This document shows, in pieces, positions 16,051 to 48,878 of a stretch of 64,000 nucleotides of DNA. Numbering within the stretch: the first letter of the stretch is position 1; each line of letters opens with the position of its first letter. The notes under the pieces are model-generated. The model had not been told where the DNA came from. It did no database searches and saw only the letters and a program-made list of their open reading frames with translations. The translations under genes and the position numbers were made by a program. Source of the DNA: Acinetobacter phage YMC13/03/R2096; the sequence record KM672662.1; one strand, given 5' to 3'.

Positions 16051-16136
16051 GGGTGATGTTGGGGTGTTGGTCAACCCCATCAGACTGTAAATCTGACGTG
16101 AAAGCTGTCTAGGTTCGAATCCTAGATCACCCACCA
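16051..16136 (+). tRNA. tRNA-Tyr (GTA)
   Basis: Acceptor GGGTGAT/ATCACCC. Anticodon loop is ctGTAaa. Long variable arm. T-arm is GGTTCGAATCC. CCA is encoded. Confidence 0.8.
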
Positions 16137-16139
16137 AAT

Positions 16140-16214
16140 AGTACCTTAGTTCAGGGGTAGAACGCAGAACTGATAATTCTGAGGTCGATGGTTCGAAACC
16201 ATCAGGTACTACCA
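16140..16214 (+). tRNA. tRNA-Ile (GAT)
   Basis: Acceptor AGTACCT/AGGTACT pairs perfectly. Loop is ctGATaa. CCA is encoded. Confidence 0.8.
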
Positions 16215-16243
16215 ATTTAAAAGTTTTTAAAAGTTTATTCAGG

Positions 16244-16315
16244 TCTAGTGTAGCACAACGGTAGTGCAGCAGACTGTTAATCTGTTGGTTGTTGGTTCGA
16301 ATCCAGCCTCTAGAG
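16244..16315 (+). tRNA. tRNA-Asn (GTT)
   Basis: Loop ctGTTaa, D-stem GCAC/GTGC and G73. The acceptor has one mismatch and no CCA is encoded. Confidence 0.55.
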
Positions 16316-17057
16316 CCTGAGTAAATTAAGAATTACCCTTCGGGGTATGGGTCGTGTATAACCCTTAGATAAACTGCAAAACAGTATAAAGTCGTAACGG
16401 CAGTTATGGCGCAGAGTAAAAATCTGTCAAGTACACACTCAAGGTATCATACTTATGTGGCGTAGAGCCAATCGGTGTAAACCATTTAAGTATGGGGGTG
16501 TAATGCTCCTGAGTCGATAGGCAATAAGAGAACTTGAAGGTATCTAGCGAAGTTGATTGTCAAGTCAAAACGCTGTTTACCATTGTGAGAGGTATATAGA
16601 GTTTAACAGGTGGTGCTGAATCTCGTAGTCCTAAACCAAGTGGACAATATATGCTTGAAACATCGTGCATGGTAAAGCACATTAGGTAGTGTGGTATTGA
16701 TGGGTTCAAAAGATCTGTTAGCCACAGAGAAACCACTATCTATGCAATACAAATTTCATTTTAGGAAAAAATTAAATTCAAAAGTGTTTCTCACGTTGGC
16801 ATGAAAGGTGCTTACATAGTAATGGGTTGTCCATTGCACATTTAACCTGAAAGGTTATTTGTATTTTCATGAAAGGATTATGTTTGGTAGGCATACTAGC
16901 ATAGTTTGAGTATTGGGAGAGTAGTTCCAACGTCTAAGAGTGGTTAGCTATACTGACCAGCACTGATCACTACTATATAAAGTATAGTGGATAATGAGGG
17001 AAAAGATAATCCTCTCAAGGTGGTCATTTAAACGTGTAATCTCAGCGTTTTACTTGT

Positions 17058-17132
17058 GGCTCTGTAGCATAGTGGATTATGCGCCTCCCTGTCTAGGAGA
17101 AAAACGCCAGTTCGAGTCTGGTCAGAGTCGCC
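17058..17132 (+). tRNA. tRNA-Asp (GTC)
   Basis: Acceptor GGCTCTG/CAGAGTC. Loop is ctGTCta. G73. CCA is encoded. Confidence 0.75.
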
Positions 17133-17136
17133 AGTA

Positions 17137-17211
17137 TTGTCGTATAGTGTAATGGTTAGCACAGAAGACTTTGACTCTTCTAGTTTAGGTTCGAGTCCTA
17201 ATTCGACTACC
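17137..17211 (+). tRNA. tRNA-Gln (TTG)
   Basis: Anticodon stem GAAGA/TCTTC pairs perfectly. Loop is ctTTGac. T-arm is TTAGG-TTCGAGT-CCTAA. The acceptor has one mismatch. Confidence 0.6.
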
Positions 17212-17214
17212 AAA

Positions 17215-17290
17215 TGGGTCACTAGCACAATGGTAGTGCAGTTGCTTTGCAAGCATCAGGTTAAGGGTTCGAGTCCCTTGTGTATCCACC
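17215..17290 (+). tRNA. tRNA-like element, anticodon probably TGC (Ala). Acceptor pairing is poor.
   Basis: D-stem GCAC/GTGC, loop ttTGCaa, T-arm AAGGG-TTCGAGT-CCCTT and a CCA end. Only 5 of 7 acceptor base pairs could be formed by hand. Confidence 0.35.
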
Positions 17291-17292
17291 AA

Positions 17293-17368
17293 TATTCCAT
17301 TCGACTAGCGGTTAGGTCGCTTCCCTTTCAAGGAAGTAGCACGAGTTCGAATCTCGTATGGAATACCA
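17293..17368 (+). tRNA. tRNA-Glu (TTC)
   Basis: Acceptor ATTCCAT/ATGGAAT pairs perfectly. Stem CTTCC/GGAAG. Loop ctTTCaa. CCA is encoded. Confidence 0.8.
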
Positions 17369-17370
17369 AT

Positions 17371-17447
17371 AGGACGTTAGCTCAGTTGGTTAGAGCAAGA
17401 GCCTTTTAAGTTCGAGGTCATAGGTTCAAATCCTATACGTCCTACCA
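17371..17447 (+). tRNA. tRNA-Lys (TTT)
   Basis: Acceptor AGGACGT/ACGTCCT pairs perfectly. D-arm is GCTCAGTTGGTTAGAGC. Loop ctTTTaa. CCA is encoded. Confidence 0.8.
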
Positions 17448-17452
17448 ACAAT

Positions 17453-17526
17453 GGTGACTTTGGTGTAATGGTTTGCATCACTCCCTGTGAAGGAGAAGGT
17501 CAGGGTTCAAATCCCGAAGTCACACC
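17453..17526 (+). tRNA. tRNA-His (GTG) with G-1
   Basis: Loop ctGTGaa. Acceptor GTGACTT/AAGTCAC is preceded by an extra G. CCA is encoded. Confidence 0.65.
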
Positions 17527-18225
17527 AAGAATTTTAAGAATTTCAAACGAGTAGAGGTACAGTCCTGAAAGTTTGAAAGTGGGGCGACACCTGCCTGAAG
17601 TAGTAGCTAATAATGGCCTGTTAGTGAATCTAAGTGGTGTGACTTAACTGACTTGGAGAGAAAGGTCGGGGCAGAGCACAAGTAGCTGAGATGGATTAGC
17701 GCTACCCTGAAGAGGTTGAGAGGTTGGATCGTTACCAACATTGTGCACCAAATTTTTAAAAGAAGAATTATTTTAGGATTACCATAACCTAAAGGCTCGA
17801 AGGGGCGGTCTGCAACATCGTTGTTGGTGAGTTGAAGTCTCACATGGTAATCCAAAGTGATTTTTATAGAGGTTAAACCAGATAGGTTCTGGGACACCCT
17901 GCTAAGGTGATCGTGTTAGAAATAGCATTCGGATCGAGACCGATGGCCTCTGCCAAATTTGTTGTGCGCTCCACAGGTTGATCCTGTTACGGTTATCCTC
18001 AAGACCAGACCGCAACAAAGCAACATCAATGGCTTGTCTAAAGTAACGCTGTTGATGGGGCAAATGCAGACACCGATTCGCCTCTGACCTAGTTAAGCAC
18101 ACTAATCGGTTTTTTCTTAGGGCTATTGGACAGGTAATTACCCCTCCTTTAGTTACGACAAGATATCTTCGTGGCTCGCTACCTTGAAGGCATCCCAGTT
18201 AGGGTTCTGGTTAAAAACTCACTAC

Positions 18226-18300
18226 AGTCCCTTAGCTCAATCGGGAGAGCAACACTCTTACAAGGTGAAGGTAGTAGGTTCGAAACCTACAGGGACTACC
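18226..18300 (+). tRNA. tRNA-Val (TAC)
   Basis: Acceptor AGTCCCT/AGGGACT pairs perfectly. Loop ctTACaa. T-arm is GTAGG-TTCGAAA-CCTAC. CCA is encoded. Confidence 0.75.
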
Positions 18301-18301
18301 A

Positions 18302-18391
18302 AGGTGGGTAGCGTCAAGGTGACAAAGCGGGCTTGAACCCCGTGCCAATTGTGATGAGCAGTTGAGAGTTCGATTCTTTTACCCATCGCCA
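18302..18391 (+). tRNA. tRNA-Ser (TGA), class II
   Basis: Acceptor GGTGGGT/ACCCATC. Stem GCGGG/CCCGT. Loop ctTGAac. Long variable arm. G73 and CCA. Confidence 0.6.
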
Positions 18392-18392
18392 A

Positions 18393-18466
18393 GCGTTTAT
18401 AGTGTAGTGGTAACACCCTGTACTTCCAATTCAGTATCTTCGGTTCGAATCCGAATAGACGCTCCA
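18393..18466 (+). tRNA. tRNA-Gly (TCC)
   Basis: Acceptor GCGTTTA/TAGACGC. Loop ctTCCaa. T-arm is TTCGG-TTCGAAT-CCGAA. U73 and CCA. Confidence 0.75.
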
Positions 18467-18477
18467 GATTATGTTTA

Positions 18478-18600
18478 TGGACACTTCCTAAGGTTCTTTC
18501 TACAGGTTCGAAACTGTTTTAAGAATTGCTGGTGCTAGGTTTAGCGTCAAGAATCATTCGAAGGGTTCTTGGGGTGGTGAGTTCGATTCTCACAGTGTTC
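18478..18600 (+). ncRNA. aberrant 123-nt tRNA-like element
   Basis: GGACACT pairs with AGTGTTC on 7 of 7 positions, enclosing about 110 nt. Inside are two T-arm-like hairpins (ACAGG-TTCGAAA-CTGT and GTGAG-TTCGATT-CTCAC) and a 6-bp stem CAAGAA/TTCTTG. There is no canonical anticodon arm and no CCA. Confidence 0.3.
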
Positions 18601-18619
18601 CCCCTATTTTAAAGTTTAT

Positions 18620-18696
18620 CTCTGTGTAGCTCAGTTTGGTAGAGCACTCGCTTTGGGAGTGAGGGGTCGTAAGTTCAATTCTTACTACAGAGACCA
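18620..18696 (+). tRNA. tRNA-Pro (TGG)
   Basis: Acceptor CTCTGTG/TACAGAG. Stem CTCGC/GTGAG. Loop ttTGGga. T-arm is GTAAG-TTCAATT-CTTAC. CCA is encoded. Confidence 0.7.
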
Positions 18697-18783
18697 GTTA
18701 TGAAGTGTTTGTACAGCTATCAGCTCACCGTTTAAAGGATACGGACAAGTCGGCTCGACTAAAGACTCACTTCATATGTTTTT

Positions 18784-18860
18784 GGGTAGTTGAAGGGAAT
18801 GGCATACCTTTCACGCTTAGAACGTGAAGTTTCTGAGTTCGAGTCTCAGACTACCTACCA
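18784..18860 (+). tRNA. class-I tRNA with anticodon TAG, presumably Leu (CUA/CUG)
   Basis: Acceptor GGGTAGT/ACTACCT. Stem TCACG/CGTGA pairs perfectly. Loop ctTAGaa. Variable loop is 5 nt. A73 and CCA. Confidence 0.6.
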
Positions 18861-18866
18861 AATTCT

Positions 18867-18942
18867 GGGGATATAGCCCAACGGCAGAGGCAAGAGGTTT
18901 AAACCCTCTCAAGTTTCAGTTCGAATCTGAATATCCCTACCA
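18867..18942 (+). tRNA. class-I tRNA with anticodon TAA, presumably Leu (UUA/UUG)
   Basis: Acceptor GGGGATA/TATCCCT. Stem AGAGG/CCTCT pairs perfectly. Loop ttTAAac. Variable loop is 5 nt. T-arm is TTCAG-TTCGAAT-CTGAA. A73 and CCA. Confidence 0.6.
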
Positions 18943-18957
18943 GTTTAGGAGTGCTAC

Positions 18958-19239
18958 ATGGAAGTATTACTTGTTAGTGATTGTAGATGCCAAGAGCGTT
19001 ATGACTTTGCAGATATTGTAAAGGATGCTCAAGAACAAGGTATCAAAATTAAGTACACATTAGTTCCTAAGAAGATATCCTATGAAGATAGAACTTACAC
19101 ATTTGTTAATGTTGAAGATCTCACTAAGGATAAAAGTTGTATTGTTGGTAAGAAGTTTGATGATGTCTATTTGACACCAGAAGCTAAAGATGCTATACCT
19201 TTAGGGTTGCTATCATTTATACTTACAAGAATACGTTAA
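18958..19239 (+). CDS. small hypothetical protein embedded in tRNA cluster
   Basis: 93-aa ORF. An AGGAG site lies 8 nt upstream of the ATG. Confidence 0.5.
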   Translation: MEVLLVSDCRCQERYDFADIVKDAQEQGIKIKYTLVPKKISYEDRTYTFVNVEDLTKDKSCIVGKKFDDVYLTPEAKDAIPLGLLSFILTRIR

Positions 19240-19246
19240 GTTTTAA

Positions 19247-19334
19247 GTCCCTACACCCTCCAAGAGCCTTCTAAGCTCTCGACATTAAATAGGGGGAAGG
19301 TAGTCAGAGTGTTCGATTCACTGTGGGGACTCCA
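19247..19334 (+). tRNA. atypical tRNA-like element, anticodon TCT (Arg?). It has a rudimentary D-arm and a 27-nt variable region.
   Basis: Acceptor GTCCCTA/TGGGGAC and stem AGAGC/GCTCT pair perfectly. Loop ctTCTaa. T-arm is GAGTG-TTCGATT-CACTG. CCA is encoded. Confidence 0.4.
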
Positions 19335-19335
19335 A

Positions 19336-19411
19336 GCCGAATTAGCTCAGTTGGTAGAGCAGCGCACTTGTAATGCGAAGGTCGTAGACTCGGATTCTAC
19401 ATTCGGCACCA
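19336..19411 (+). tRNA. tRNA-Thr (TGT)
   Basis: Acceptor GCCGAAT/ATTCGGC pairs perfectly. D-arm is GCTCAGTTGGTAGAGC. Loop ctTGTaa. T-loop is CTCGGAT. CCA is encoded. Confidence 0.75.
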
Positions 19412-19417
19412 TATTTA

Positions 19418-19507
19418 GGTCGTGTAGCTTAAAGAAAGCAAGAGGATTTATAAACCTTTTCACTAGATAAGTGCTTGATGTGGGGGCAGTACCCACCACG
19501 ACTACCA
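19418..19507 (+). tRNA. class-II tRNA-like element with a 9-nt anticodon loop (AUUUAUAAA); identity unresolved
   Basis: Acceptor GGTCGTG/CACGACT. D-stem GCTT/AAGC. Stem AGAGG/CCTTT encloses the 9-nt loop. Long variable arm. T-arm is GTGGG-GGCAGTA-CCCAC. A73 and CCA. Confidence 0.4.
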
Positions 19508-19509
19508 AT

Positions 19510-19579
19510 AAGTCCCCCTCTGGGAGGGAAGAGGTCTCCAAAACCACTTAGCTGTGTTCGATTCACAGGGGATTTGCCA
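19510..19579 (+). tRNA. tRNA-Trp (CCA), short 70-nt form
   Basis: Acceptor AAGTCCC/GGGATTT. Loop ctCCAaa. T-arm is CTGTG-TTCGATT-CACAG. G73 and CCA. The D-arm is compact. Confidence 0.55.
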
Positions 19580-19729
19580 AATTAGATTAAGATGTTGGTG
19601 CGTGACAACCTTAATCGGCATGATTTTAGTTTATGTCGATGTGATAAACATGGCTAGATAGATATGTCGATAAAAACTAGAAATTAAAACACGTAGTATT
19701 GAAATGTTAAAAATAATTAAACAAAACAC

Positions 19730-19758
19730 TTGACAAATAGATTTTTAGTGTTATATAT
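19730..19758 (+). promoter_or_regulatory. promoter (TTGACA, 16-17-nt spacer, TATATA/TATAAT) upstream of tRNA-Met and thioredoxin
   Basis: Near-consensus -35 and -10 elements. Confidence 0.5.
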
Positions 19759-19783
19759 AATATATAAGCAATTAAGTTTTCAT

Positions 19784-19858
19784 AGCGAGGTAGTGTAACG
19801 GTTTGCACAGGGGACTCATAATCCTCTGGTTTGGGTTCGAATCCCAACTTCGCTTCCA
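19784..19858 (+). tRNA. tRNA-Met/fMet or Ile2 (CAT)
   Basis: Acceptor AGCGAGG/CTTCGCT. Stem GGGGA/TCCTC. Loop ctCATaa. T-arm is TTGGG-TTCGAAT-CCCAA. CCA is encoded. Confidence 0.7.
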
Positions 19859-21631: not shown

Positions 21632-22905
21632 ATGTTATCCGTAAAAATGAAGTAGTTCTGAGGGCTGGTGGTGGTGCTTTTGAAGAAGCCAAAGCTTTAT
21701 ACAAGGCATTTGAGCCGAGAGTTAAAATCACAGAGAAACCTATGAGGTTTCGCTTTCCTTCTGGTGCTGTAATTAACTTTGCAGGTGCTGAAGATGAGAA
21801 AGCTATGGAAAAATATCGTGGTCTTAACTTGACTGGCGTGATGGTCGATGAAGGTACACAGTTATCAGAAAGACAAATTTGGTTCTTGATCTCTCGTTTG
21901 CGTAACGGTAAAGATCCAAACATTATGCCAAATATATGGATTACATGTAACCCTGACCCTGATAGTTATTTGTTTGAATGGGTTAAGTGGTATTTATATC
22001 CTGTAGGGCATCCTCTTGCTGGAAGACCTGATAAAGATAAGAATGGATTAAAAAGATATTTCGTATCGACTCCAGAAGGTTTAGTTTGGAGTGATAATGA
22101 ACAGGAATTACTTGATAAGTATCCGCATTTATTTACAAAAGGGACTAGACCACTAAGCTTTAGATTTATTGGTGGTACAGTTTACGATAACCCACCTCTT
22201 CTTAAGAACTCACCTCAATATCTTCAAAACCTACTCCAACAGAAAGACCGAGTAGTGCGAGAACGTGAGTTGTACGGCAACTGGTTTGCACGTAGGGAAG
22301 ATTCAAGTTACTTCAACAGGTCTTGGTGTGAGATAGTTGATAAGCCTCCTGAAAGGGTCCGTAAAAGGGTTCGTTCTTGGGACTTGGCTTTCACATTACC
22401 AACTGAGACAAACCCAAACCCCGATTATACCTGTGGTGTTCGTCTGAGTAAAGATGATGAAGGTACAATCTATGTTGAAGACATGGTTCTTGAAAGGGTT
22501 GGTTCTGGGCAAATTATTGAGTTAATTGCAAAGACTGGTCTAGAAGATGCTGAGATGTTTGGTGTTGTTGAAACAACAATCCCTCAAGATGCTGGTGGTA
22601 TGGCTAAATTTGCAGCTAGGGATATGGCCTCTAAGCTAAGAGAGCATGGTGTATCTCCTATTGTAGTTCCTGTAGGTAATAAAGGCAAGCTCGTTCGTTT
22701 TATTCCATTCTCAGGTGCAGCACAAAATAAACATGTGAAGATTGTACGTGGTGATTGGAATGCAGCCTTCTTTCATCAGTTAGAAGCTTTTGGAAGTGGA
22801 AATAAGGCTGTGCACGATGATGCTGTCGATGCTGTTGCTGATGCTTATAAAAGAGTAGCAGAAAATAGAACGATTGACTATGCCATCGACTTAGCAGTTT
22901 TATAA
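21632..22905 (+). CDS. terL: terminase large subunit, exon 3 (ATPase Walker B and nuclease domain)
   Basis: ..VIRKNEVVLRAGGGAFEE..LTGVMVDEG (Walker B), plus a C-terminal RNaseH-like nuclease region. The frame is open only from 21625. The spliced product would be about 473 aa. Confidence 0.75.
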
Positions 22906-23055: not shown

Positions 23056-24417
23056 ATGAATTGGGATGCTCTAACATACCCAACAAGCCTTGAAACATAC
23101 AAATTAATGGGCAAACATTTAGTTATCTCTTCAGCACTTAATCTAATTTCAACCATGATGGCTAGGGTTCCTTGGAGAATTGAAGCTTACGAGCCTAAAG
23201 AGGCTGATATGAAGAATGCTAAATTTATCACTGAAGTGTTTAATGACATGGATGAAGGTTGGCAGACTTTTATTTCAGAAGTATCAACAATGAACCAATA
23301 TGGACATTCTGTTCATGAGATTGTTTTAAGATACAGAAGATTTGAGGAAGGTTCACGATACAATGATGGTAAGATTGGCCTAAAATATTTACCAATCAGA
23401 TCACAACACAGTATTGCTGAATGGGTTTATGACCCTAATGGTAGAACCTTGCTAGGTATCACTCAGAAGATTCCTCAAACTAAAAAATATATGGGTTATA
23501 AAGAAAAAGAGATCTTTATTCCTATTGAAAGTCTCTTAATTTTCAGAGTCAATCCTCAAGATGGTAGCCCTATTGGGACAAGCCCTTTAGATGGATGTTA
23601 TAGTGCTTGGAGATACTTGGTAACTTATCAAGAAATTGAAGGTACAACTGTTAGTAAAAACCTTAACGGTGTGGGTATTTTTAAAATCCCATCTAAGTAT
23701 ATGGCTGAGCATGCCACTCCAGCAGACCGAAAGGTTTATGAGAATGCAAAACGTATTGTTTCTAATGTGAACAATGGCGAGCAAGCTGGTATGGTTATCC
23801 CTTCAGATTTTGATGAACTTAGTGGTAAGCCTTACTTTGGTTTTGAAGTTATTAACTCTACAGCATCTAATACATCTGTTACAGGTGAGATTGTTAAAAG
23901 ATACACCAATGAAATTCTTCAATGCTTGAGTGCAGATTTATTACAACTTGGTTCTACCAATACTGGTTCTTACTCTCTTGCCGATAGTAAAACTTCTCTA
24001 GTAGAAACTGTAGTTGAATCTCGTATGATGGTTATTAAAGAATTAATGAATAGGAAGTTAATTCCAATCATTGCAGAAGCTAATGGTATGGATTTAGAAA
24101 GACTACCTAAATTTGAATTTGGTGATATCTCTAGACCAGACCTTGAGACTTTCGCTAAGGCAATCCAACAACTTACTGCTGTTAATATGGTATATCGCTC
24201 AGCACGTAATGTCAACAGAATTGCAGAGATTCTAAGTCTTCCTGACATGGTTGACCCTGATATCTCTAAAGAGGAACTTGACAAGTTACTTGGTGTTGAC
24301 CAAGAAATGCAAAGTAAGAGTGGTAAAGGTTACGCTTCTGATACTGGTGGACTTAATGGAACATCAAATAAAGTAGCTAAGAAGGATAACTCAGCAAATA
24401 ATTTACAAAATAAGTGA
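23056..24417 (+). CDS. portal protein
   Basis: 453 aa. It lies directly after terL and before the protease. Call rests on position and size. Confidence 0.6.
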   Translation: MNWDALTYPTSLETYKLMGKHLVISSALNLISTMMARVPWRIEAYEPKEADMKNAKFITEVFNDMDEGWQTFISEVSTMNQYGHSVHEIVLRYRRFEEGSRYNDGKIGLKYLPIRSQHSIAEWVYDPNGRTLLGITQKIPQTKKYMGYKEKEIFIPIESLLIFRVNPQDGSPIGTSPLDGCYSAWRYLVTYQEIEGTTVSKNLNGVGIFKIPSKYMAEHATPADRKVYENAKRIVSNVNNGEQAGMVIPSDFDELSGKPYFGFEVINSTASNTSVTGEIVKRYTNEILQCLSADLLQLGSTNTGSYSLADSKTSLVETVVESRMMVIKELMNRKLIPIIAEANGMDLERLPKFEFGDISRPDLETFAKAIQQLTAVNMVYRSARNVNRIAEILSLPDMVDPDISKEELDKLLGVDQEMQSKSGKGYASDTGGLNGTSNKVAKKDNSANNLQNK

Positions 24418-46106: not shown

Positions 46107-48878
46107 TTATTGACAGTTATCACATTCTTCATGTCGCTTAATATCACCAGATCCCCTCATAGAGTAGATGTAATATAAAGCTAAGATACCTGCATTTTCC
46201 AAAGCATATTTGTGAACCTTCATAATATACTCTGGAGTGTCATTACTTGTAAAATACAAGTTGATTGACTGTTGCTGATCAATATATTGTTGTCGTTGTG
46301 CACACAAATCCAAATGTTTGATCATGTCAATCTCAAAGGCAGTTCTAAAGACATCCTTCTCATGCTGAGTCAACCAGTGAACATGTTGTACAGAACCTTT
46401 ATGCTTATTGATGTCATTGATTACGTCTTCATTGTAAACACCACGTTCCTTCATGATCTCTAGAAGGACCTTATTAACCCTCCAGATATCCCCTCCAGCA
46501 CTCTGCTTAACGAACACCATTGCAACATCCAGACCAATACCTTCAGAAGCACCAGCCATAATCTCTGCTGTTGACTTTGTAGGTGGCATCATCATGGTAG
46601 TGGCATTACGGATTCCTAAATGAGCACACCCTTCAGGCATACCAACTTCACGAGCTAGCCACTTAGAAGCAGCTAAGGTTTGGTCTCTCATACCCTTAAA
46701 GATTTCTTCATTTAACCAGAAGCTCTCAAGGCTACCTACCACAATTCTACGTTTTTGTAGTAGTGTGTGGAAACCTAGTACACCTGTACCAACTGCACGG
46801 AATCTCTTGGTGAAGGCTAAGATTTTTCTAAATGCCAAGGCATCCTCTTTATCTTGAGCCATTCTCGTTTCCATGAACTCAATGTAGTCACTCACATTAC
46901 AGTCTTGCATAACATGCGCAATAAATGCTAAGTGAGGACATCTTGATTTCCACTCATCGTATAAGTCAAGGTTCAAGTTTAGAATTACACAAGAGAATGT
47001 ATGCTTCTCATCACTACCAAGTAACACTTCTTGGCAATTCATTGTATTCAAACCATTGAACATCAACATGTTACGTTTTGGCTCAAGTGCACAATATGTA
47101 TCATCAAATCTTCCTTGGTCGATCACTTCATCAACACATACAAATCTTTCAGCAGAACGTTGAGGTTTTCTTTCACTCCATTTTAGGCGGTGTGTTTTTA
47201 AACCTAACTGACTCAACTTAAAGAGACCTGTACTCGATACAAGAAGACGATAAGCATCTTGGCATTCATACAGTCCTTTATCACCTGTACCATTATTGAG
47301 AGGTAATTCTTTTAGACCACCTACATCCCTCAAGACAACCTTTGAAGAAACACCAAGTGTTTGTAACATCAATTGCACATCTTGTAAGAATGTCTTGTGA
47401 ATGCTTACCACTTGGATAGATTCATTTTCACCATTACGAGCAATAGTTCCATCTGAATCTAGGAGTCCAGCAAACCATTCCAATCGGCTTTCAACAGTGT
47501 ACTCAGATGTTGGTACAAAGAATTTATCCTTAAGCCCTTCACTGTGAGTAAGCTTAATACGATCACCACCTTGAAGTCCTGACACTGAAGAAACGCAAGT
47601 TATATTTTCAAGTAACTCCTTCTTCTTACCATACAAGTATGTGTGTTTTTTACCTTTGTATTCAAAACCATCACCAGTGAAGAATCCATTAGTGTAAGCA
47701 TGTCCGAGGGTCTTGTCACCTAAAATAACTGGTAGATCAAATTTAGATAGTCGATCACCAGACTTCAACTCGTAGGCACGTTTAATGACCTCATTGCCAT
47801 CCTCACCAACAACCTTAAAGCGGTGATACTCTGTGCAATCTAATTCATACCCTGAATCAGTTACCACTTTAACTAACTTCTGATTTTCACCAGTTTTGAT
47901 AATTGTCACTTCAGACCATTCAAAACCATTCCACACCTCGACCTGTTGTCCCTCAAGGTCAGAAATCGTTTGATATCCACCTTTAGTTAAGATTAATGTC
48001 TCAGGTGCAACACACAAATTAGAAGCTTTCGCTGTCATACCTGCATCTTTAAATGCCTGAGCTAAGTGGCGGTTCATTTCATCAATCTTAGTGAAGTAAC
48101 CCTTACCACGCTGCATCTTGATAGCAATAGCTTTAGCTAATAGGGCAACTGCTTCTGGGTCATCCTTGACTAACTTCTCAATGTACTCGTCCTTACATAA
48201 CCATGCTGGGTTATTACTTTCAGGTCGTTTGAATAGGTACTTTAAAACTTCCTCAAACTCAGGATGTTCAATACTAACAGCATAAGATAAACTACCTCTA
48301 CGGCTACCTTGAACAACCTCATCCATACAATTAATCAAGTCACGAATGACAGGCATCACCCCACCACCATAACCACCTCTAGGCAGTTTCTTACCTTTAT
48401 AGGCCCAGTCATCAACTGAGTAAGATGTACCATGCGAGTGCTTAGTCAAGATACCTGCTTCAGTCACACAATCGTAACGAGAGAACAAGTTGTCACCAAC
48501 ATAACCACCAGCACAACTTACTGTTGACCCCCTTTCAGGTAAACCACTGTTCGCCAATAAAGGAGTTGAACAAGACACATAACCATCCCAAAGTACGTCA
48601 AAAAACACTTCCTCCCAAGTTTTACCAGCCGTATAAGTATCCACATTCCACCAAGAAGGGTACTTATCTGGTGCATGTTTAGCTAAAGTCTTAGCAATCA
48701 TTTTATAGCGAGATTTTACAGTCTCACCATTCCAAGAATATTTTTCAAAGAACAATTGAGTACCACCAGTGGTAAACCATTTAGGGATCTCTCCATGTTC
48801 TTGTAGTTTTTTTCTGAGTTGACTGTAACTATCAACCCCGTATAATTCCAATGTTTCTAAATAAGATAAAACAGCCAC
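46107..48878 (-). CDS. nrdA: ribonucleotide reductase large subunit (class I NrdA/NrdE-like) containing an intein
   Basis: N-terminal ATP-cone-like region. The active-site motif ASNLC is interrupted after the Cys and resumes as CQEVLL. The C-terminus carries the CxxC tail ECDNCQ. Confidence 0.85.
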   Translation of the reverse strand: MAVLSYLETLELYGVDSYSQLRKKLQEHGEIPKWFTTGGTQLFFEKYSWNGETVKSRYKMIAKTLAKHAPDKYPSWWNVDTYTAGKTWEEVFFDVLWDGYVSCSTPLLANSGLPERGSTVSCAGGYVGDNLFSRYDCVTEAGILTKHSHGTSYSVDDWAYKGKKLPRGGYGGGVMPVIRDLINCMDEVVQGSRRGSLSYAVSIEHPEFEEVLKYLFKRPESNNPAWLCKDEYIEKLVKDDPEAVALLAKAIAIKMQRGKGYFTKIDEMNRHLAQAFKDAGMTAKASNLCVAPETLILTKGGYQTISDLEGQQVEVWNGFEWSEVTIIKTGENQKLVKVVTDSGYELDCTEYHRFKVVGEDGNEVIKRAYELKSGDRLSKFDLPVILGDKTLGHAYTNGFFTGDGFEYKGKKHTYLYGKKKELLENITCVSSVSGLQGGDRIKLTHSEGLKDKFFVPTSEYTVESRLEWFAGLLDSDGTIARNGENESIQVVSIHKTFLQDVQLMLQTLGVSSKVVLRDVGGLKELPLNNGTGDKGLYECQDAYRLLVSSTGLFKLSQLGLKTHRLKWSERKPQRSAERFVCVDEVIDQGRFDDTYCALEPKRNMLMFNGLNTMNCQEVLLGSDEKHTFSCVILNLNLDLYDEWKSRCPHLAFIAHVMQDCNVSDYIEFMETRMAQDKEDALAFRKILAFTKRFRAVGTGVLGFHTLLQKRRIVVGSLESFWLNEEIFKGMRDQTLAASKWLAREVGMPEGCAHLGIRNATTMMMPPTKSTAEIMAGASEGIGLDVAMVFVKQSAGGDIWRVNKVLLEIMKERGVYNEDVINDINKHKGSVQHVHWLTQHEKDVFRTAFEIDMIKHLDLCAQRQQYIDQQQSINLYFTSNDTPEYIMKVHKYALENAGILALYYIYSMRGSGDIKRHEECDNCQ
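47037..48014 (-). other. intein (326 aa) with LAGLIDADG homing-endonuclease domain inside nrdA
   Basis: Starts with Cys289 (CVAPETLILT). Two dodecapeptide motifs: YTNGFFTGDGF and EWFAGLLDSDGT. Ends ..LMFNGLNTMN, with Cys as the +1 residue. The joined extein reads ASNL-CQEVLL. Confidence 0.75.

What the first reader, a model, noticed from the sequence alone, without database searches (positions are those of the whole stretch)
18784..18942. Two adjacent class-I tRNAs carrying leucine anticodons UAG and UAA
Both fold cleanly with perfect anticodon stems. Both have a discriminator A73, which is a Leu identity element. Both have only a 5-nt variable loop. Bacterial and most phage tRNA-Leu are class II with a long variable arm. 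Either these are unusually compact Leu isoacceptors, or they are charged with something else. In the second case CUA and UUA/UUG could be reassigned or mistranslated during infection.
Basis: partly seen in the sequence, partly recalled or inferred. Interest (0 to 1): 0.6.

Follow-up and report, generated by a model that had tools for sequence, protein, structure and literature searches.

The report
Two short-armed phage leucine tRNAs
These are two genuine leucine tRNA genes of an Acinetobacter phage that lack the usual long extra arm; this compact form makes up roughly a quarter to a third of virus-encoded leucine tRNAs, so the finding is real but ordinary and gives no sign of a changed genetic code.

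Summary
Observation confirmed. ARAGORN and the Rfam tRNA model both call tRNA-Leu(UAG) at 18784-18860 and tRNA-Leu(UAA) at 18867-18942. The window is 99% identical to Acinetobacter phages Ab15 and Bestia, where these genes are already annotated as tRNA-Leu.

The "unusual" part does not hold. In viral contigs sampled with a class-neutral pattern, 19 of 65 tRNA-Leu have a variable loop of 6 nt or less, against 0 of 46 Ser and 0 of 17 Tyr. A consensus of the UAA type matches 615 phage records and many single chromosomal genes in Actinomycetota. A 77-nt tRNA-Leu(UAA) of the UAG gene's short-armed type, from a T5-like Salmonella phage, is annotated as an effective amber suppressor.

Both genes carry the E. 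coli leucine identity set: A73, A14, A15:U48, G18G19, A20a and U54:A58. Both also have G1·U72, as E. coli leuZ does. With the anticodon masked, both score best against leucine profiles.

UUA, UUG and CUA codons in the phage's reductase and portal genes align with Leu in distant homologs, like CUU. Reassignment is not supported. Charging by the Acinetobacter enzyme remains untested.

The parts
18784..18860 (+). tRNA-Leu(UAG), 77 nt, class I, the 'family B' type. Acceptor 18784-18790 pairs with 18850-18856 (G1.U72). Anticodon stem 18811-18815 / 18823-18827. Anticodon UAG 18818-18820. Variable loop AGUUU 18828-18832. T arm 18833-18849. A73 at 18857. CCA 18858-18860.
   Evidence: ARAGORN. Rfam RF00005 at 48.0 bits. 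100% identical in phages AM24, Bestia, Herod, Mithridates and Ab15, and 84% identical in BS46 with compensatory stem changes. Family alignment shows covariation in 19 of 20 pairs. The anticodon-masked profile ranks class II Leu first.
18867..18942 (+). tRNA-Leu(UAA), 76 nt, class I, the 'family A' type. Acceptor 18867-18873 pairs with 18932-18938 (G1.U72). D arm is UAGCCCAACGGCAGAGGCA. Anticodon UAA 18900-18902. Variable loop CAAGU 18910-18914. T arm 18915-18931. A73 at 18939. CCA 18940-18942.
   Evidence: ARAGORN. Rfam RF00005 at 55.8 bits. 97-99% identical in related Acinetobacter phages, and about 77-80% identical across the variable loop to tRNA-Leu of Enterococcus, Streptomyces, Mycobacterium, Bacillus, Pseudomonas and cyanobacterial phages. 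Family alignment shows covariation in 16 of 21 pairs. The anticodon-masked profile ranks class I Leu first and class II Leu second.
18861..18866 (+). 6-nt spacer AAUUCU between the two tRNAs. They lie head to tail inside a same-strand tRNA cluster spanning about 16051-19858.
   Evidence: Sequence and cluster map. Co-transcription is inferred from spacing and orientation and has not been shown.

Best explanation
Both genes encode functional leucine-accepting tRNAs of the short-variable-loop kind (class I, also called type I). They are made from the phage's same-strand tRNA cluster. They are probably charged by the host Acinetobacter leucyl-tRNA synthetase. In bacteria that enzyme reads the discriminator A73 and the D-loop/T-loop corner of the tRNA, not the anticodon and not the long arm.

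Together they decode UUA/UUG and CUA (and probably other CUN codons) as leucine. That is 56% plus up to 44% of the leucine codons in this phage's long ORFs.

Shown here:
- The genes and their cloverleaves.
- Conservation and covariation across homologs.
- Possession of the E. coli leucine identity set.
- The leucine meaning of the codons, judged from homolog alignments.
- That this tRNA type is widespread.

Inferred, not shown: actual leucylation by the Acinetobacter enzyme, expression, and benefit to the phage.
For: (1) Two independent detectors agree on the gene and the anticodon register.

(2) Identity elements. The E. coli LeuRS set is A73, A14, A15:U48, G18G19, A20a and U54:A58 (PMC9976931; PMC6614811). 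All are present in both genes in the Rfam alignment and in the alignment with E. coli leuZ and leuW. G1.U72 is shared with E. coli leuZ. It occurs in 11 of 23 class I and 10 of 42 class II viral tRNA-Leu, against 1 of 46 Ser and 0 of 17 Tyr.

(3) The long arm is dispensable for E. coli LeuRS, and minimal tRNA-Leu lacking it are still charged (PMC9976931).

(4) A profile classifier with the anticodon masked and the variable region removed puts Leu first for both genes. The UAG gene scores 9.2 against class II Leu, with Tyr next at -1.1. The UAA gene scores 20.4 against class I Leu, then -8.4 against class II Leu, then Gln at -11.0. The same classifier gives the right answer for 9 of the 14 other tRNAs of the window.

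(5) Codons. In NrdA, 32 TTA, 22 TTG and 14 CTA codons align with Leu in 56%, 62% and 64% of cells, across 101 homologs at 43-63% identity. CTT gives 64%. In the late portal gene Leu is again the top residue for TTA and CTA, at 0.40 and 0.38. At that divergence this is comparable to ATT aligning with Ile at 0.34 and TTT with Phe at 0.36.

(6) The type is common and under selection:
- All 119 pattern-bearing tRNAs confirmed by ARAGORN in viral contigs are tRNA-Leu of 73-79 nt.
- 19 of 65 tRNA-Leu in the class-neutral sample are class I.
- Compensatory changes occur in 16 of 21 pairs and 19 of 20 pairs.

(7) Function in a gammaproteobacterial phage system. The 77-nt class I tRNA-Leu(UAA) of T5-like Salmonella phage 5 is annotated 'replacement of the anticodon with CUA converts this tRNA into effective amber suppressor'. 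So such a tRNA is charged independently of its anticodon and works on the ribosome. A consensus of the UAA gene's type matches 615 phage records, including 220 Salmonella and 128 Escherichia phages.

(8) The only other synthetases that ignore the anticodon are excluded. SerRS needs the long arm and G73. AlaRS needs G3:U70, and both genes here have G3-C70. HisRS needs G-1, and the base at -1 is T in both.
Against: - No charging or expression data exist for these two genes or for any Acinetobacter phage tRNA.
- In vitro, E. coli LeuRS did not leucylate the Streptomyces coelicolor type I tRNA-Leu(CAA) at all (PMC6614811). Acceptance of a short-armed tRNA-Leu by a gammaproteobacterial enzyme therefore cannot be assumed.
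- The UAG tRNA has an irregular 8-to-D-stem junction: either an extra nucleotide or a missing nucleotide 26. This could lower its activity.
- The phage 5 suppressor note does not say which amino acid is inserted.
- The codon test shows what the codons mean over evolutionary time. It would not detect low-level mistranslation.
- The host's own tRNA-Leu genes could not be retrieved for comparison.
Confidence: 0.8

Rival explanations
1. The tRNAs are charged with an amino acid other than leucine. CUA and/or UUA/UUG would then be reassigned or systematically mistranslated during infection.
For: Precedents exist in mitochondria. Class I tRNA(UAG) species decode CUN as Thr in yeast and as Ala in Ashbya (PMC7609411). 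E. coli LeuRS failed on one heterologous type I tRNA-Leu, so Leu charging is not guaranteed.
Against: - CUA, UUA and UUG codons sit at positions occupied by Leu in distant homologs, as often as CUU does.
- Both anticodon loops are 7 nt, and both genes have G3-C70, not G3:U70.
- Both bodies score as Leu with the anticodon masked.
- UUA alone is 37.5% of Leu codons and about 3% of all codons in the long ORFs. Reassignment would rewrite every protein.
- Synthetases other than LeuRS, SerRS and AlaRS depend on anticodon bases that these tRNAs lack (PMC9976931).
Confidence: 0.03
2. The genes are real tRNA-shaped RNAs but contribute little to translation in Acinetobacter. They would be poorly charged passengers acquired by horizontal transfer within a mobile tRNA cluster. 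Alternatively they serve another role, such as decoys for host tRNA-targeting nucleases or processing signals.
For: - The cluster is a mosaic with many degenerate tRNA-like elements, a GOLLD RNA and small ORFs.
- The UAA gene's nearest relatives outside Acinetobacter phages are in Enterococcus, Streptomyces and Mycobacterium phages.
- E. coli LeuRS rejects a Streptomyces type I tRNA-Leu.
- The UAG tRNA has an irregular D-arm junction.
Against: - The UAG gene is 100% identical and the UAA gene 97-99% identical across five phages. Where the UAA gene was compared directly (window against Bestia), the two differences lie in loops.
- There are compensatory changes against BS46.
- The full set of leucine identity elements and an encoded CCA are retained.
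- No long-armed tRNA-Leu is called in the cluster or annotated in Bestia's cluster, so these two are the phage's only detected Leu tRNAs.
- A tRNA of the UAG gene's type is an effective suppressor in a T5-like phage system.
Confidence: 0.1
3. The tRNAs are leucine tRNAs, as in the best explanation, but their lack of a long arm is itself the adaptation. It would make them insensitive to host defence nucleases or toxins that recognise or cut the variable arm of class II tRNAs. Leu decoding would then survive when host tRNA-Leu is destroyed.
For: - Septu and retron-Eco7 stop phages by cutting the variable loop of host tRNA-Tyr. T5 tRNA-Tyr escapes through a different variable loop (PMC13096335).
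- Phage tRNAs evading anticodon nucleases is an established idea (PMC10264068).
- Loss of the arm is seen only for Leu, the one class II isotype whose bacterial synthetase does not need the arm.
- The phage encodes a pair that could cover all six Leu codons.
Against: - No nuclease that cuts the variable arm of tRNA-Leu was found in the literature searched here.
- The same short-armed type is a normal chromosomal gene in Actinomycetota. It therefore needs no defence-related explanation.
- Six of 11 viral contigs with class I Leu also carry class II Leu.
- Nothing in this window links the tRNAs to a defence system.
Confidence: 0.12

Closest known systems
tRNAL2, tRNA-Leu(UAA) of T5-like Salmonella phage 5 (GenBank AJ604531)
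   Same: A phage-encoded tRNA-Leu of 77 nt with a 5-nt variable loop (GUUUU), G1.U72, A73, encoded CCA and a GGCAUA D loop like the window's UAG gene. It lies in a tRNA cluster interspersed with small ORFs. Its host is a gammaproteobacterium.
   Different: Only about 60-65% identical in sequence. It has a regular 8-9 junction. The record notes that it becomes an effective amber suppressor when given a CUA anticodon. No such data exist for the window's genes.
Type I tRNA-Leu(CAA) of Streptomyces coelicolor and the equivalent single chromosomal genes of many Actinomycetota (PMC6614811)
   Same: Both have a 5-nt variable loop. The chromosomal genes recovered here carry the same D-arm signature as the window's UAA gene (UAGCCCAAY..GGYAGAGGCA) and A73. 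The S. coelicolor tRNA is leucylated by a bacterial-type LeuRS.
   Different: Chromosomal and essential in Streptomyces. Its synthetase does not use A73 and has a specialised leucine-specific domain. E. coli LeuRS does not charge it. Most have G1-C72 (99 of 119), whereas G1.U72 predominates in the viral set (63 of 119).
E. coli class II tRNA-Leu: leuZ (UAA) and leuW (UAG)
   Same: Same anticodons. Both have A73 and a D loop of the form AAYYGGYAGA with a 3-bp D stem and a 13.22 mismatch. Both have U48 and the same T-loop interactions. leuZ also has G1.U72.
   Different: They carry a variable arm 8-10 nt longer in the alignment, for total lengths of 85-87 nt.
Human mitochondrial tRNA-Leu(UUR) (PMC9976931)
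   Same: A class I tRNA-Leu with a UAA-type anticodon. Its identity is set by A73 and A14, and it is charged by a bacterial-type LeuRS.
   Different: Organellar, structurally floppy and dependent on modifications. It is not charged by the Streptomyces LeuRS.
Mitochondrial reassigning tRNAs with a UAG anticodon: yeast tRNA-Thr(UAG) and Ashbya tRNA-Ala(UAG) (PMC7609411)
   Same: Class I tRNAs carrying a UAG anticodon.
   Different: They have an 8-nt anticodon loop on a His-derived body, or a G3:U70 pair. The window's gene has a 7-nt loop, G3-C70 and a Leu-type body, and CUA aligns with Leu.

Membership tests
Class I (type I) tRNA-Leu | Leucine anticodon (NAG or YAA) centred in a 7-nt loop after U33 | tested here: met
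   The loops are CUUAGAA and UUUAAAC, in the same register by ARAGORN and by the Rfam covariance model.
Class I (type I) tRNA-Leu | Variable loop of 4-5 nt with no extra arm | tested here: met
   AGUUU and CAAGU. The alignment with E. coli leuZ and leuW shows a clean 8-10-nt gap at the arm.
Class I (type I) tRNA-Leu | Discriminator A73 | tested here: met
   A at 18857 and at 18939. A73 occurs in 23 of 23 class I and 40 of 42 class II viral tRNA-Leu.
Class I (type I) tRNA-Leu | Core elements of bacterial Leu identity: U8:A14, A15:U48, G18G19, A20a, U54:A58 | tested here: met
   All are present by sequence in the Rfam register, against the element list in PMC9976931 and PMC6614811. Caveat: the UAG gene needs an extra nucleotide in the 8-9 junction to place A14 and A15.
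Class I (type I) tRNA-Leu | Body resembles leucine tRNAs when the anticodon is ignored (a stand-in for isotype-specific models) | tested here: met
   The home-made position-specific profile ranks Leu first for both genes. It is a crude classifier. It was right for 9 of 14 control tRNAs and is not the tRNAscan-SE isotype model.
Class I (type I) tRNA-Leu | Leucylated by LeuRS and used to insert Leu | not testable with these tools
   Indirect evidence only: codon alignments and the suppressor activity annotated for phage 5 tRNAL2, which is of the UAG gene's type.
Canonical bacterial class II tRNA-Leu | Variable arm of 10 nt or more forming a stem-loop | tested here: not met
   The variable loops are 5 nt.
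Sense-codon reassigning tRNA(UAG) of the mitochondrial Thr or Ala type | 8-nt anticodon loop or a G3:U70 pair, with target codons aligning with the new amino acid | tested here: not met
   7-nt loops and G3-C70 in both genes. CTA aligns with Leu in 64% of cells in NrdA homologs and 38% in portal homologs, and Leu is the top residue in both.
Widespread short-armed tRNA-Leu lineage 'family A' (a working name used in this report) | D arm UAGCCCAAY(N0-3)GGYAGAGGCA followed by a Leu anticodon, with variable loop NNAGU | tested here: met
   The UAA gene matches the search pattern exactly. All 119 viral and 119 bacterial tRNAs that ARAGORN confirmed as carrying the pattern are tRNA-Leu of 73-79 nt. 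None has a Phe anticodon, although the pattern allowed GAA and AAA.
Short-armed tRNA-Leu 'family B' (a working name used in this report) | Class II-like D arm NNGG-AAYYGGYAWA-CNN, variable loop RUUYU, T loop UUCGAGU | tested here: met
   The UAG gene aligns with 15 such tRNAs, and 19 of 20 pairs covary. Phage 5 tRNAL2 is of this type. The window's lineage differs by a one-nucleotide shift at the 8-9 junction.

The most novel reading that the evidence does not exclude
Loss of the long arm in phage tRNA-Leu is a counter-defence trait. Bacterial LeuRS, unlike SerRS and TyrRS, does not need the arm. Phages could therefore carry 'armless' replacement tRNA-Leu that escape host nucleases or toxins which recognise or cut the variable arm of class II tRNAs, as Septu and retron-Eco7 do with tRNA-Tyr. 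This would explain why a quarter to a third of viral tRNA-Leu, but no viral tRNA-Ser or tRNA-Tyr, are short-armed. It would also explain why this phage carries a pair able to cover all six Leu codons.
Probability: 0.12. Interest if true: 0.65.

Novelty: already known. Interest (0 to 1): 0.25.

Why it matters
For this window it matters little. The two genes are ordinary phage tRNA-Leu genes, already annotated in near-identical genomes, and they give no reason to suspect an altered code.

Three wider points are worth keeping:
- The textbook rule 'bacterial and phage tRNA-Leu are class II' fails for a quarter to a third of viral tRNA-Leu. A short tRNA-Leu should therefore not be flagged as anomalous in future scans.
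- The contrast with Ser and Tyr (0 of 63 short-armed) is a natural-history confirmation that bacterial LeuRS does not need the arm.
- E. coli LeuRS rejected a Streptomyces type I tRNA-Leu in vitro. Yet phages of Acinetobacter, Pseudomonas, Salmonella and Escherichia carry such tRNAs. What makes a short-armed tRNA-Leu acceptable to a gammaproteobacterial LeuRS is therefore a cheap, testable question.

Tried and rejected
- **Free-energy folding of the single sequences.** The MFE structures are not cloverleaves and z-scores are weak. This is uninformative for AT-rich unmodified tRNA sequences, so the covariance model and covariation were used instead.
- **Nearest-neighbour identity with anticodon and variable region removed.** Class I Leu gave the best neighbour for both genes, but margins over other isotypes were small (0.81 vs 0.74; 0.76 vs 0.75). 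It was replaced by position-specific profiles.
- **First MAFFT run of the profile test.** It failed on illegal characters and was repeated after cleaning.
- **BLAST of both genes against 5,426 E. coli genomes.** No match, so there is no evidence of these particular genes in E. coli prophages.
- **T5 itself.** In the region fetched, its only tRNA-Leu is an 85-nt class II UAG. The short-armed tRNAL2 is in T5 relatives.
- **Promoter and terminator scan of the cluster.** Counts were at or near shuffle expectation, and the listed terminator-like sites mostly fall inside tRNA genes, so nothing usable emerged.
- **Literature searches for an explicit description of type I tRNA-Leu in phages.** They found only a remark on a Mycobacterium tRNA-cluster tRNA-Leu(TAG) with a short variable loop (PMC6582537).
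- **The single genome-contig scan.** The host's own tRNA-Leu genes were not retrieved. That they are all class II rests on my memory only.
- **Pseudogene or chance match.** Considered and rejected, given the strong model scores, perfect conservation across phages and compensatory changes.

Full report
**What is there.** The window comes from an Acinetobacter baumannii phage. Bases 18700-19000 are 99.3% identical to phage Ab15 and 99.0% identical to phage Bestia. ARAGORN predicts 17 tRNAs on the + strand between 16051 and 19858. Among them are tRNA-Leu(tag) at 18784-18860 and tRNA-Leu(taa) at 18867-18942.

The Rfam tRNA covariance model matches both full length, at 48.0 and 55.8 bits (E about 1e-9 and 7.5e-12).

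Read directly from the sequence:
- Both anticodon stems are five Watson-Crick pairs.
- The variable loops are AGUUU and CAAGU.
- Both discriminators are A, and CCA is encoded in both.
- Six bases separate the two genes.
- Both have a G1.U72 wobble pair.

Bestia's GenBank record already annotates the same two genes as tRNA-Leu(tag) and tRNA-Leu(taa).

Two qualifications apply. Free-energy folding alone does not give clean cloverleaves (z -1.25 and -2.18). The UAG gene also has an irregular junction before its D stem. Rfam inserts an extra base between U8 and A9. ARAGORN instead draws a 4-bp D stem with no nucleotide 26. Comparison with phage BS46 and with similar tRNAs favours the Rfam register, which keeps A14, A15 and G18G19 in place.

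**Internal control.** The same cluster keeps long-armed tRNA-Tyr (86 nt) and tRNA-Ser (89 nt). The short arm is specific to Leu.

**Are such tRNAs unusual?** No. BLAST of the UAA gene finds gap-free alignments running across the variable loop to annotated tRNA-Leu genes in many unrelated phages. These infect Enterococcus, Streptomyces, Mycobacterium, Bacillus, Pseudomonas, Synechococcus and Prochlorococcus. The fetched records list these genes at 73-78 nt. Bacillus phage P59 even has the same adjacent UAG and UAA short pair.

All 119 pattern-bearing tRNAs that ARAGORN confirmed there were tRNA-Leu of 73-79 nt, covering all six Leu anticodons. None had a Phe anticodon, although the pattern allowed GAA and AAA.

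The same scan of bacterial genomes also hit its limit. The hits were mostly single chromosomal genes in Actinomycetota, with some in Planctomycetota and others.

The UAG gene belongs to a second recurrent type, family B. Its D arm resembles class II tRNA-Leu (..GG-AAYYGGYAUA-C..), and its variable loop is RUUYU.

**A class-neutral census.** I fetched 118 viral loci with a generic T-arm-plus-CCA pattern and ran ARAGORN on them. The table gives counts by variable-region length.

| Isotype | 6 nt or less | 7-9 nt | 10 nt or more |
|---|---|---|---|
| Leu (65) | 19 | 4 | 42 |
| Ser (46) | 0 | 0 | 46 |
| Tyr (17) | 0 | 0 | 17 |

Leaving out tRNAs that themselves matched the search pattern gives 13 of 51 short-armed Leu, 0 of 29 Ser and 0 of 13 Tyr. 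So a quarter to a third of viral tRNA-Leu are class I.

A family A consensus matches 615 records of isolated phages, including 220 Salmonella and 128 Escherichia phages.

**Are they real, selected tRNAs?** Yes.
- The UAG gene is 100% identical in five phages. It is 84% identical in BS46, with compensatory changes in the anticodon and acceptor stems.
- The UAA gene is 97-99% identical in relatives. Compared directly with Bestia, its two differences lie in loops.
- In an alignment of 39 family A members including the window's gene, 16 of 21 pairs show double compensatory changes.
- In 16 family B members including the window's gene, 19 of 20 pairs do.

**Which amino acid?** E. coli LeuRS does not use the anticodon or the long arm. 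It reads A73, A14, the A15:U48 pair, G18G19, A20a and U54:A58. Minimal tRNA-Leu lacking the arm are still charged (PMC9976931; PMC6614811).

Both window genes carry every one of these elements. Both also share G1.U72 with E. coli leuZ. That pair is enriched in viral tRNA-Leu of both classes and nearly absent from Ser and Tyr.

The alignment with E. coli leuZ and leuW shows the phage genes as the same tRNA with 8-10 nt missing at the arm.

The anticodon was masked and the variable region removed.
- The UAG gene scores best against class II Leu, at 9.2. Tyr is next at -1.1.
- The UAA gene scores best against class I Leu, at 20.4. Class II Leu follows at -8.4, then Gln at -11.0.
- The classifier names 9 of the 14 other window tRNAs correctly.

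The remaining synthetases that ignore the anticodon are excluded. There is no long arm or G73 for SerRS. Both genes have G3-C70 rather than G3:U70, which rules out AlaRS. Neither has G-1, which rules out HisRS.

**Codon test of the reassignment idea.** In the phage's ribonucleotide reductase gene (46107-48878, - strand), I compared each codon with 101 homologs at 43-63% identity. TTA (32 codons), TTG (22) and CTA (14) align with Leu in 56%, 62% and 64% of cells. CTT gives 64% and CTC 56%.

In the late portal gene (23056-24417), against 82 homologs below 50% identity, Leu is again the top residue for TTA (0.40) and CTA (0.38), followed by other hydrophobic residues. At this divergence ATT aligns with Ile at 0.34 and TTT with Phe at 0.36.

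Across 44 long ORFs, the Leu codon shares are:

| Codon | Share |
|---|---|
| TTA | 37.5% |
| CTT | 23.1% |
| TTG | 18.7% |
| CTA | 12.7% |
| CTC | 4.2% |
| CTG | 3.8% |

The two tRNAs therefore serve the phage's commonest Leu codons. With wobble at U34 they could cover most or all six; that last step is inference.

Nothing points to reassignment. The marks of the known mitochondrial CUN reassigners are absent: an 8-nt loop or G3:U70 (PMC7609411).

**Does a gammaproteobacterial system accept short-armed tRNA-Leu?** The evidence is mixed.
- Against: E. coli LeuRS did not charge the Streptomyces type I tRNA-Leu(CAA) in vitro, whereas the Streptomyces and human mitochondrial enzymes did (PMC6614811).
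- For: the GenBank record of T5-like Salmonella phage 5 annotates its 77-nt tRNAL2 (UUA) with the note that changing the anticodon to CUA 'converts this tRNA into effective amber suppressor'.

That tRNA is class I and family B-like, with G1.U72 and A73. So a tRNA of the UAG gene's type is charged independently of its anticodon and works in translation. Short-armed tRNA-Leu also occur in Shigella, Pseudomonas and further Acinetobacter phages, and BLAST matches suggest the same for Aeromonas and Vibrio phages.

I therefore consider leucylation by the Acinetobacter LeuRS very likely. It has not been shown.

**Why short?** This is unknown. The simplest view is that the arm is dispensable for bacterial LeuRS, so short-armed lineages persist and spread horizontally within mobile tRNA clusters. 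Family A is an old lineage shared with Actinomycetota. Family B looks like a class II tRNA-Leu that lost its arm.

A more interesting but unsupported reading is that lacking the arm protects the tRNA from defence nucleases that cut variable arms. Septu and retron-Eco7 do this to tRNA-Tyr (PMC13096335).

**Verdict.** The 'compact Leu isoacceptor' interpretation is supported and the 'reassignment' interpretation is not. The feature is an already annotated member of a common, previously described kind. Interest is low.

**Side observations.** These are listed separately. The most notable is a nearly invariant 54-nt core with a covarying closing helix, sitting immediately upstream of the UAG gene and shared by unrelated phages.

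Noticed in passing
window 18702-18778 (+), between tRNA-Pro and tRNA-Leu(UAG): A small structured element with a nearly invariant core of about 54 nt: GTACAGCTATCAGCTCACCGTTTAAAGGATACGGACAAGTCGGCTCGACTAAAGAC. It is 91-97% identical in unrelated phages of Serratia, Enterobacter, Aeromonas, Salmonella and Pseudomonas. It also occurs in 13 IMG/VR contigs. It is unannotated in every phage record listed, and in about half of the flanks examined a tRNA lies within about 110-120 nt. The closing helix differs in sequence and length (8-14 bp) but stays complementary in every copy. The MFE fold is a three-hairpin, cloverleaf-like shape. There is no Rfam 15 match at E<=1. Function unknown. It may be comparable to the 'stable RNAs of unknown function' annotated between T5 tRNAs.
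   Followed up: partly
window 16682-17048 (+): A GOLLD RNA (RF02032, 217.6 bits, E 2.5e-61, full-length model match) embedded in the tRNA cluster between tRNA-Asn and tRNA-Asp.
   Followed up: no
window 17676-17750, 17779-17854, 17868-17955, 18146-18218, 18525-18602, 19256-19334, 19418-19504, 19510-19579 (all +): Degenerate or unusual tRNA-like elements between the canonical tRNAs. ARAGORN misses them at default settings. Rfam finds 17676-17747 (38.6 bits; annotated tRNA-Phe in Bestia) and 19418-19504 (32.3 bits). The latter is 87 nt with a long extra hairpin, a 9-nt loop AUUUAUAAA and an atypical T loop (fold z -2.56). Relaxed ARAGORN adds candidates for Cys(gca), Ser(gct), Ala(cgc), an undetermined one, 'Stop(tta)' and Trp(cca) with a tiny D loop.
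   Followed up: partly
window 46107-48878 (-): The ribonucleotide reductase large subunit (923 aa) appears to carry an intein. Close homologs have the Pfam intein-splicing and LAGLIDADG domains. Intein-free homologs of about 597 aa exist in related Acinetobacter phages such as Mithridates.
   Followed up: no
window 21742-22905 (+): The terminase large-subunit ORF (387 aa) covers only positions 236-608 of a 642-position profile. Bestia annotates an uninterrupted 476-aa terminase. The gene may be split or interrupted in this phage, or its start lies upstream.
   Followed up: no
L006 3178-3262; L008 3928-4014; L010 5212-5298; unbiased viral sample: Some phage tRNAs have a long variable arm but an anticodon that is not Leu, Ser or Tyr. 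Examples are an 85-nt tRNA-Gln(ttg) with a Leu-like D arm in Pseudomonas phage Y1-MI, and 87-nt 'tRNA-Asn(gtt)' predictions in P-SSM7 and phiPsa374. In the class-neutral sample, 5 of 26 Asn, 5 of 29 Ile and 2 of 28 Gln predictions have variable regions of 10 nt or more. These are odder than the short-armed Leu tRNAs and might repay a look.
   Followed up: no
window 18958-19239 (+): A 93-aa ORF starts 15 nt after tRNA-Leu(UAA), with an AGGAG ribosome-binding site. It matches PHROG 37672 (unknown function, E 7e-64) and is annotated hypothetical in Bestia. It is one of several small ORFs interspersed in the tRNA cluster, as in T5.
   Followed up: partly
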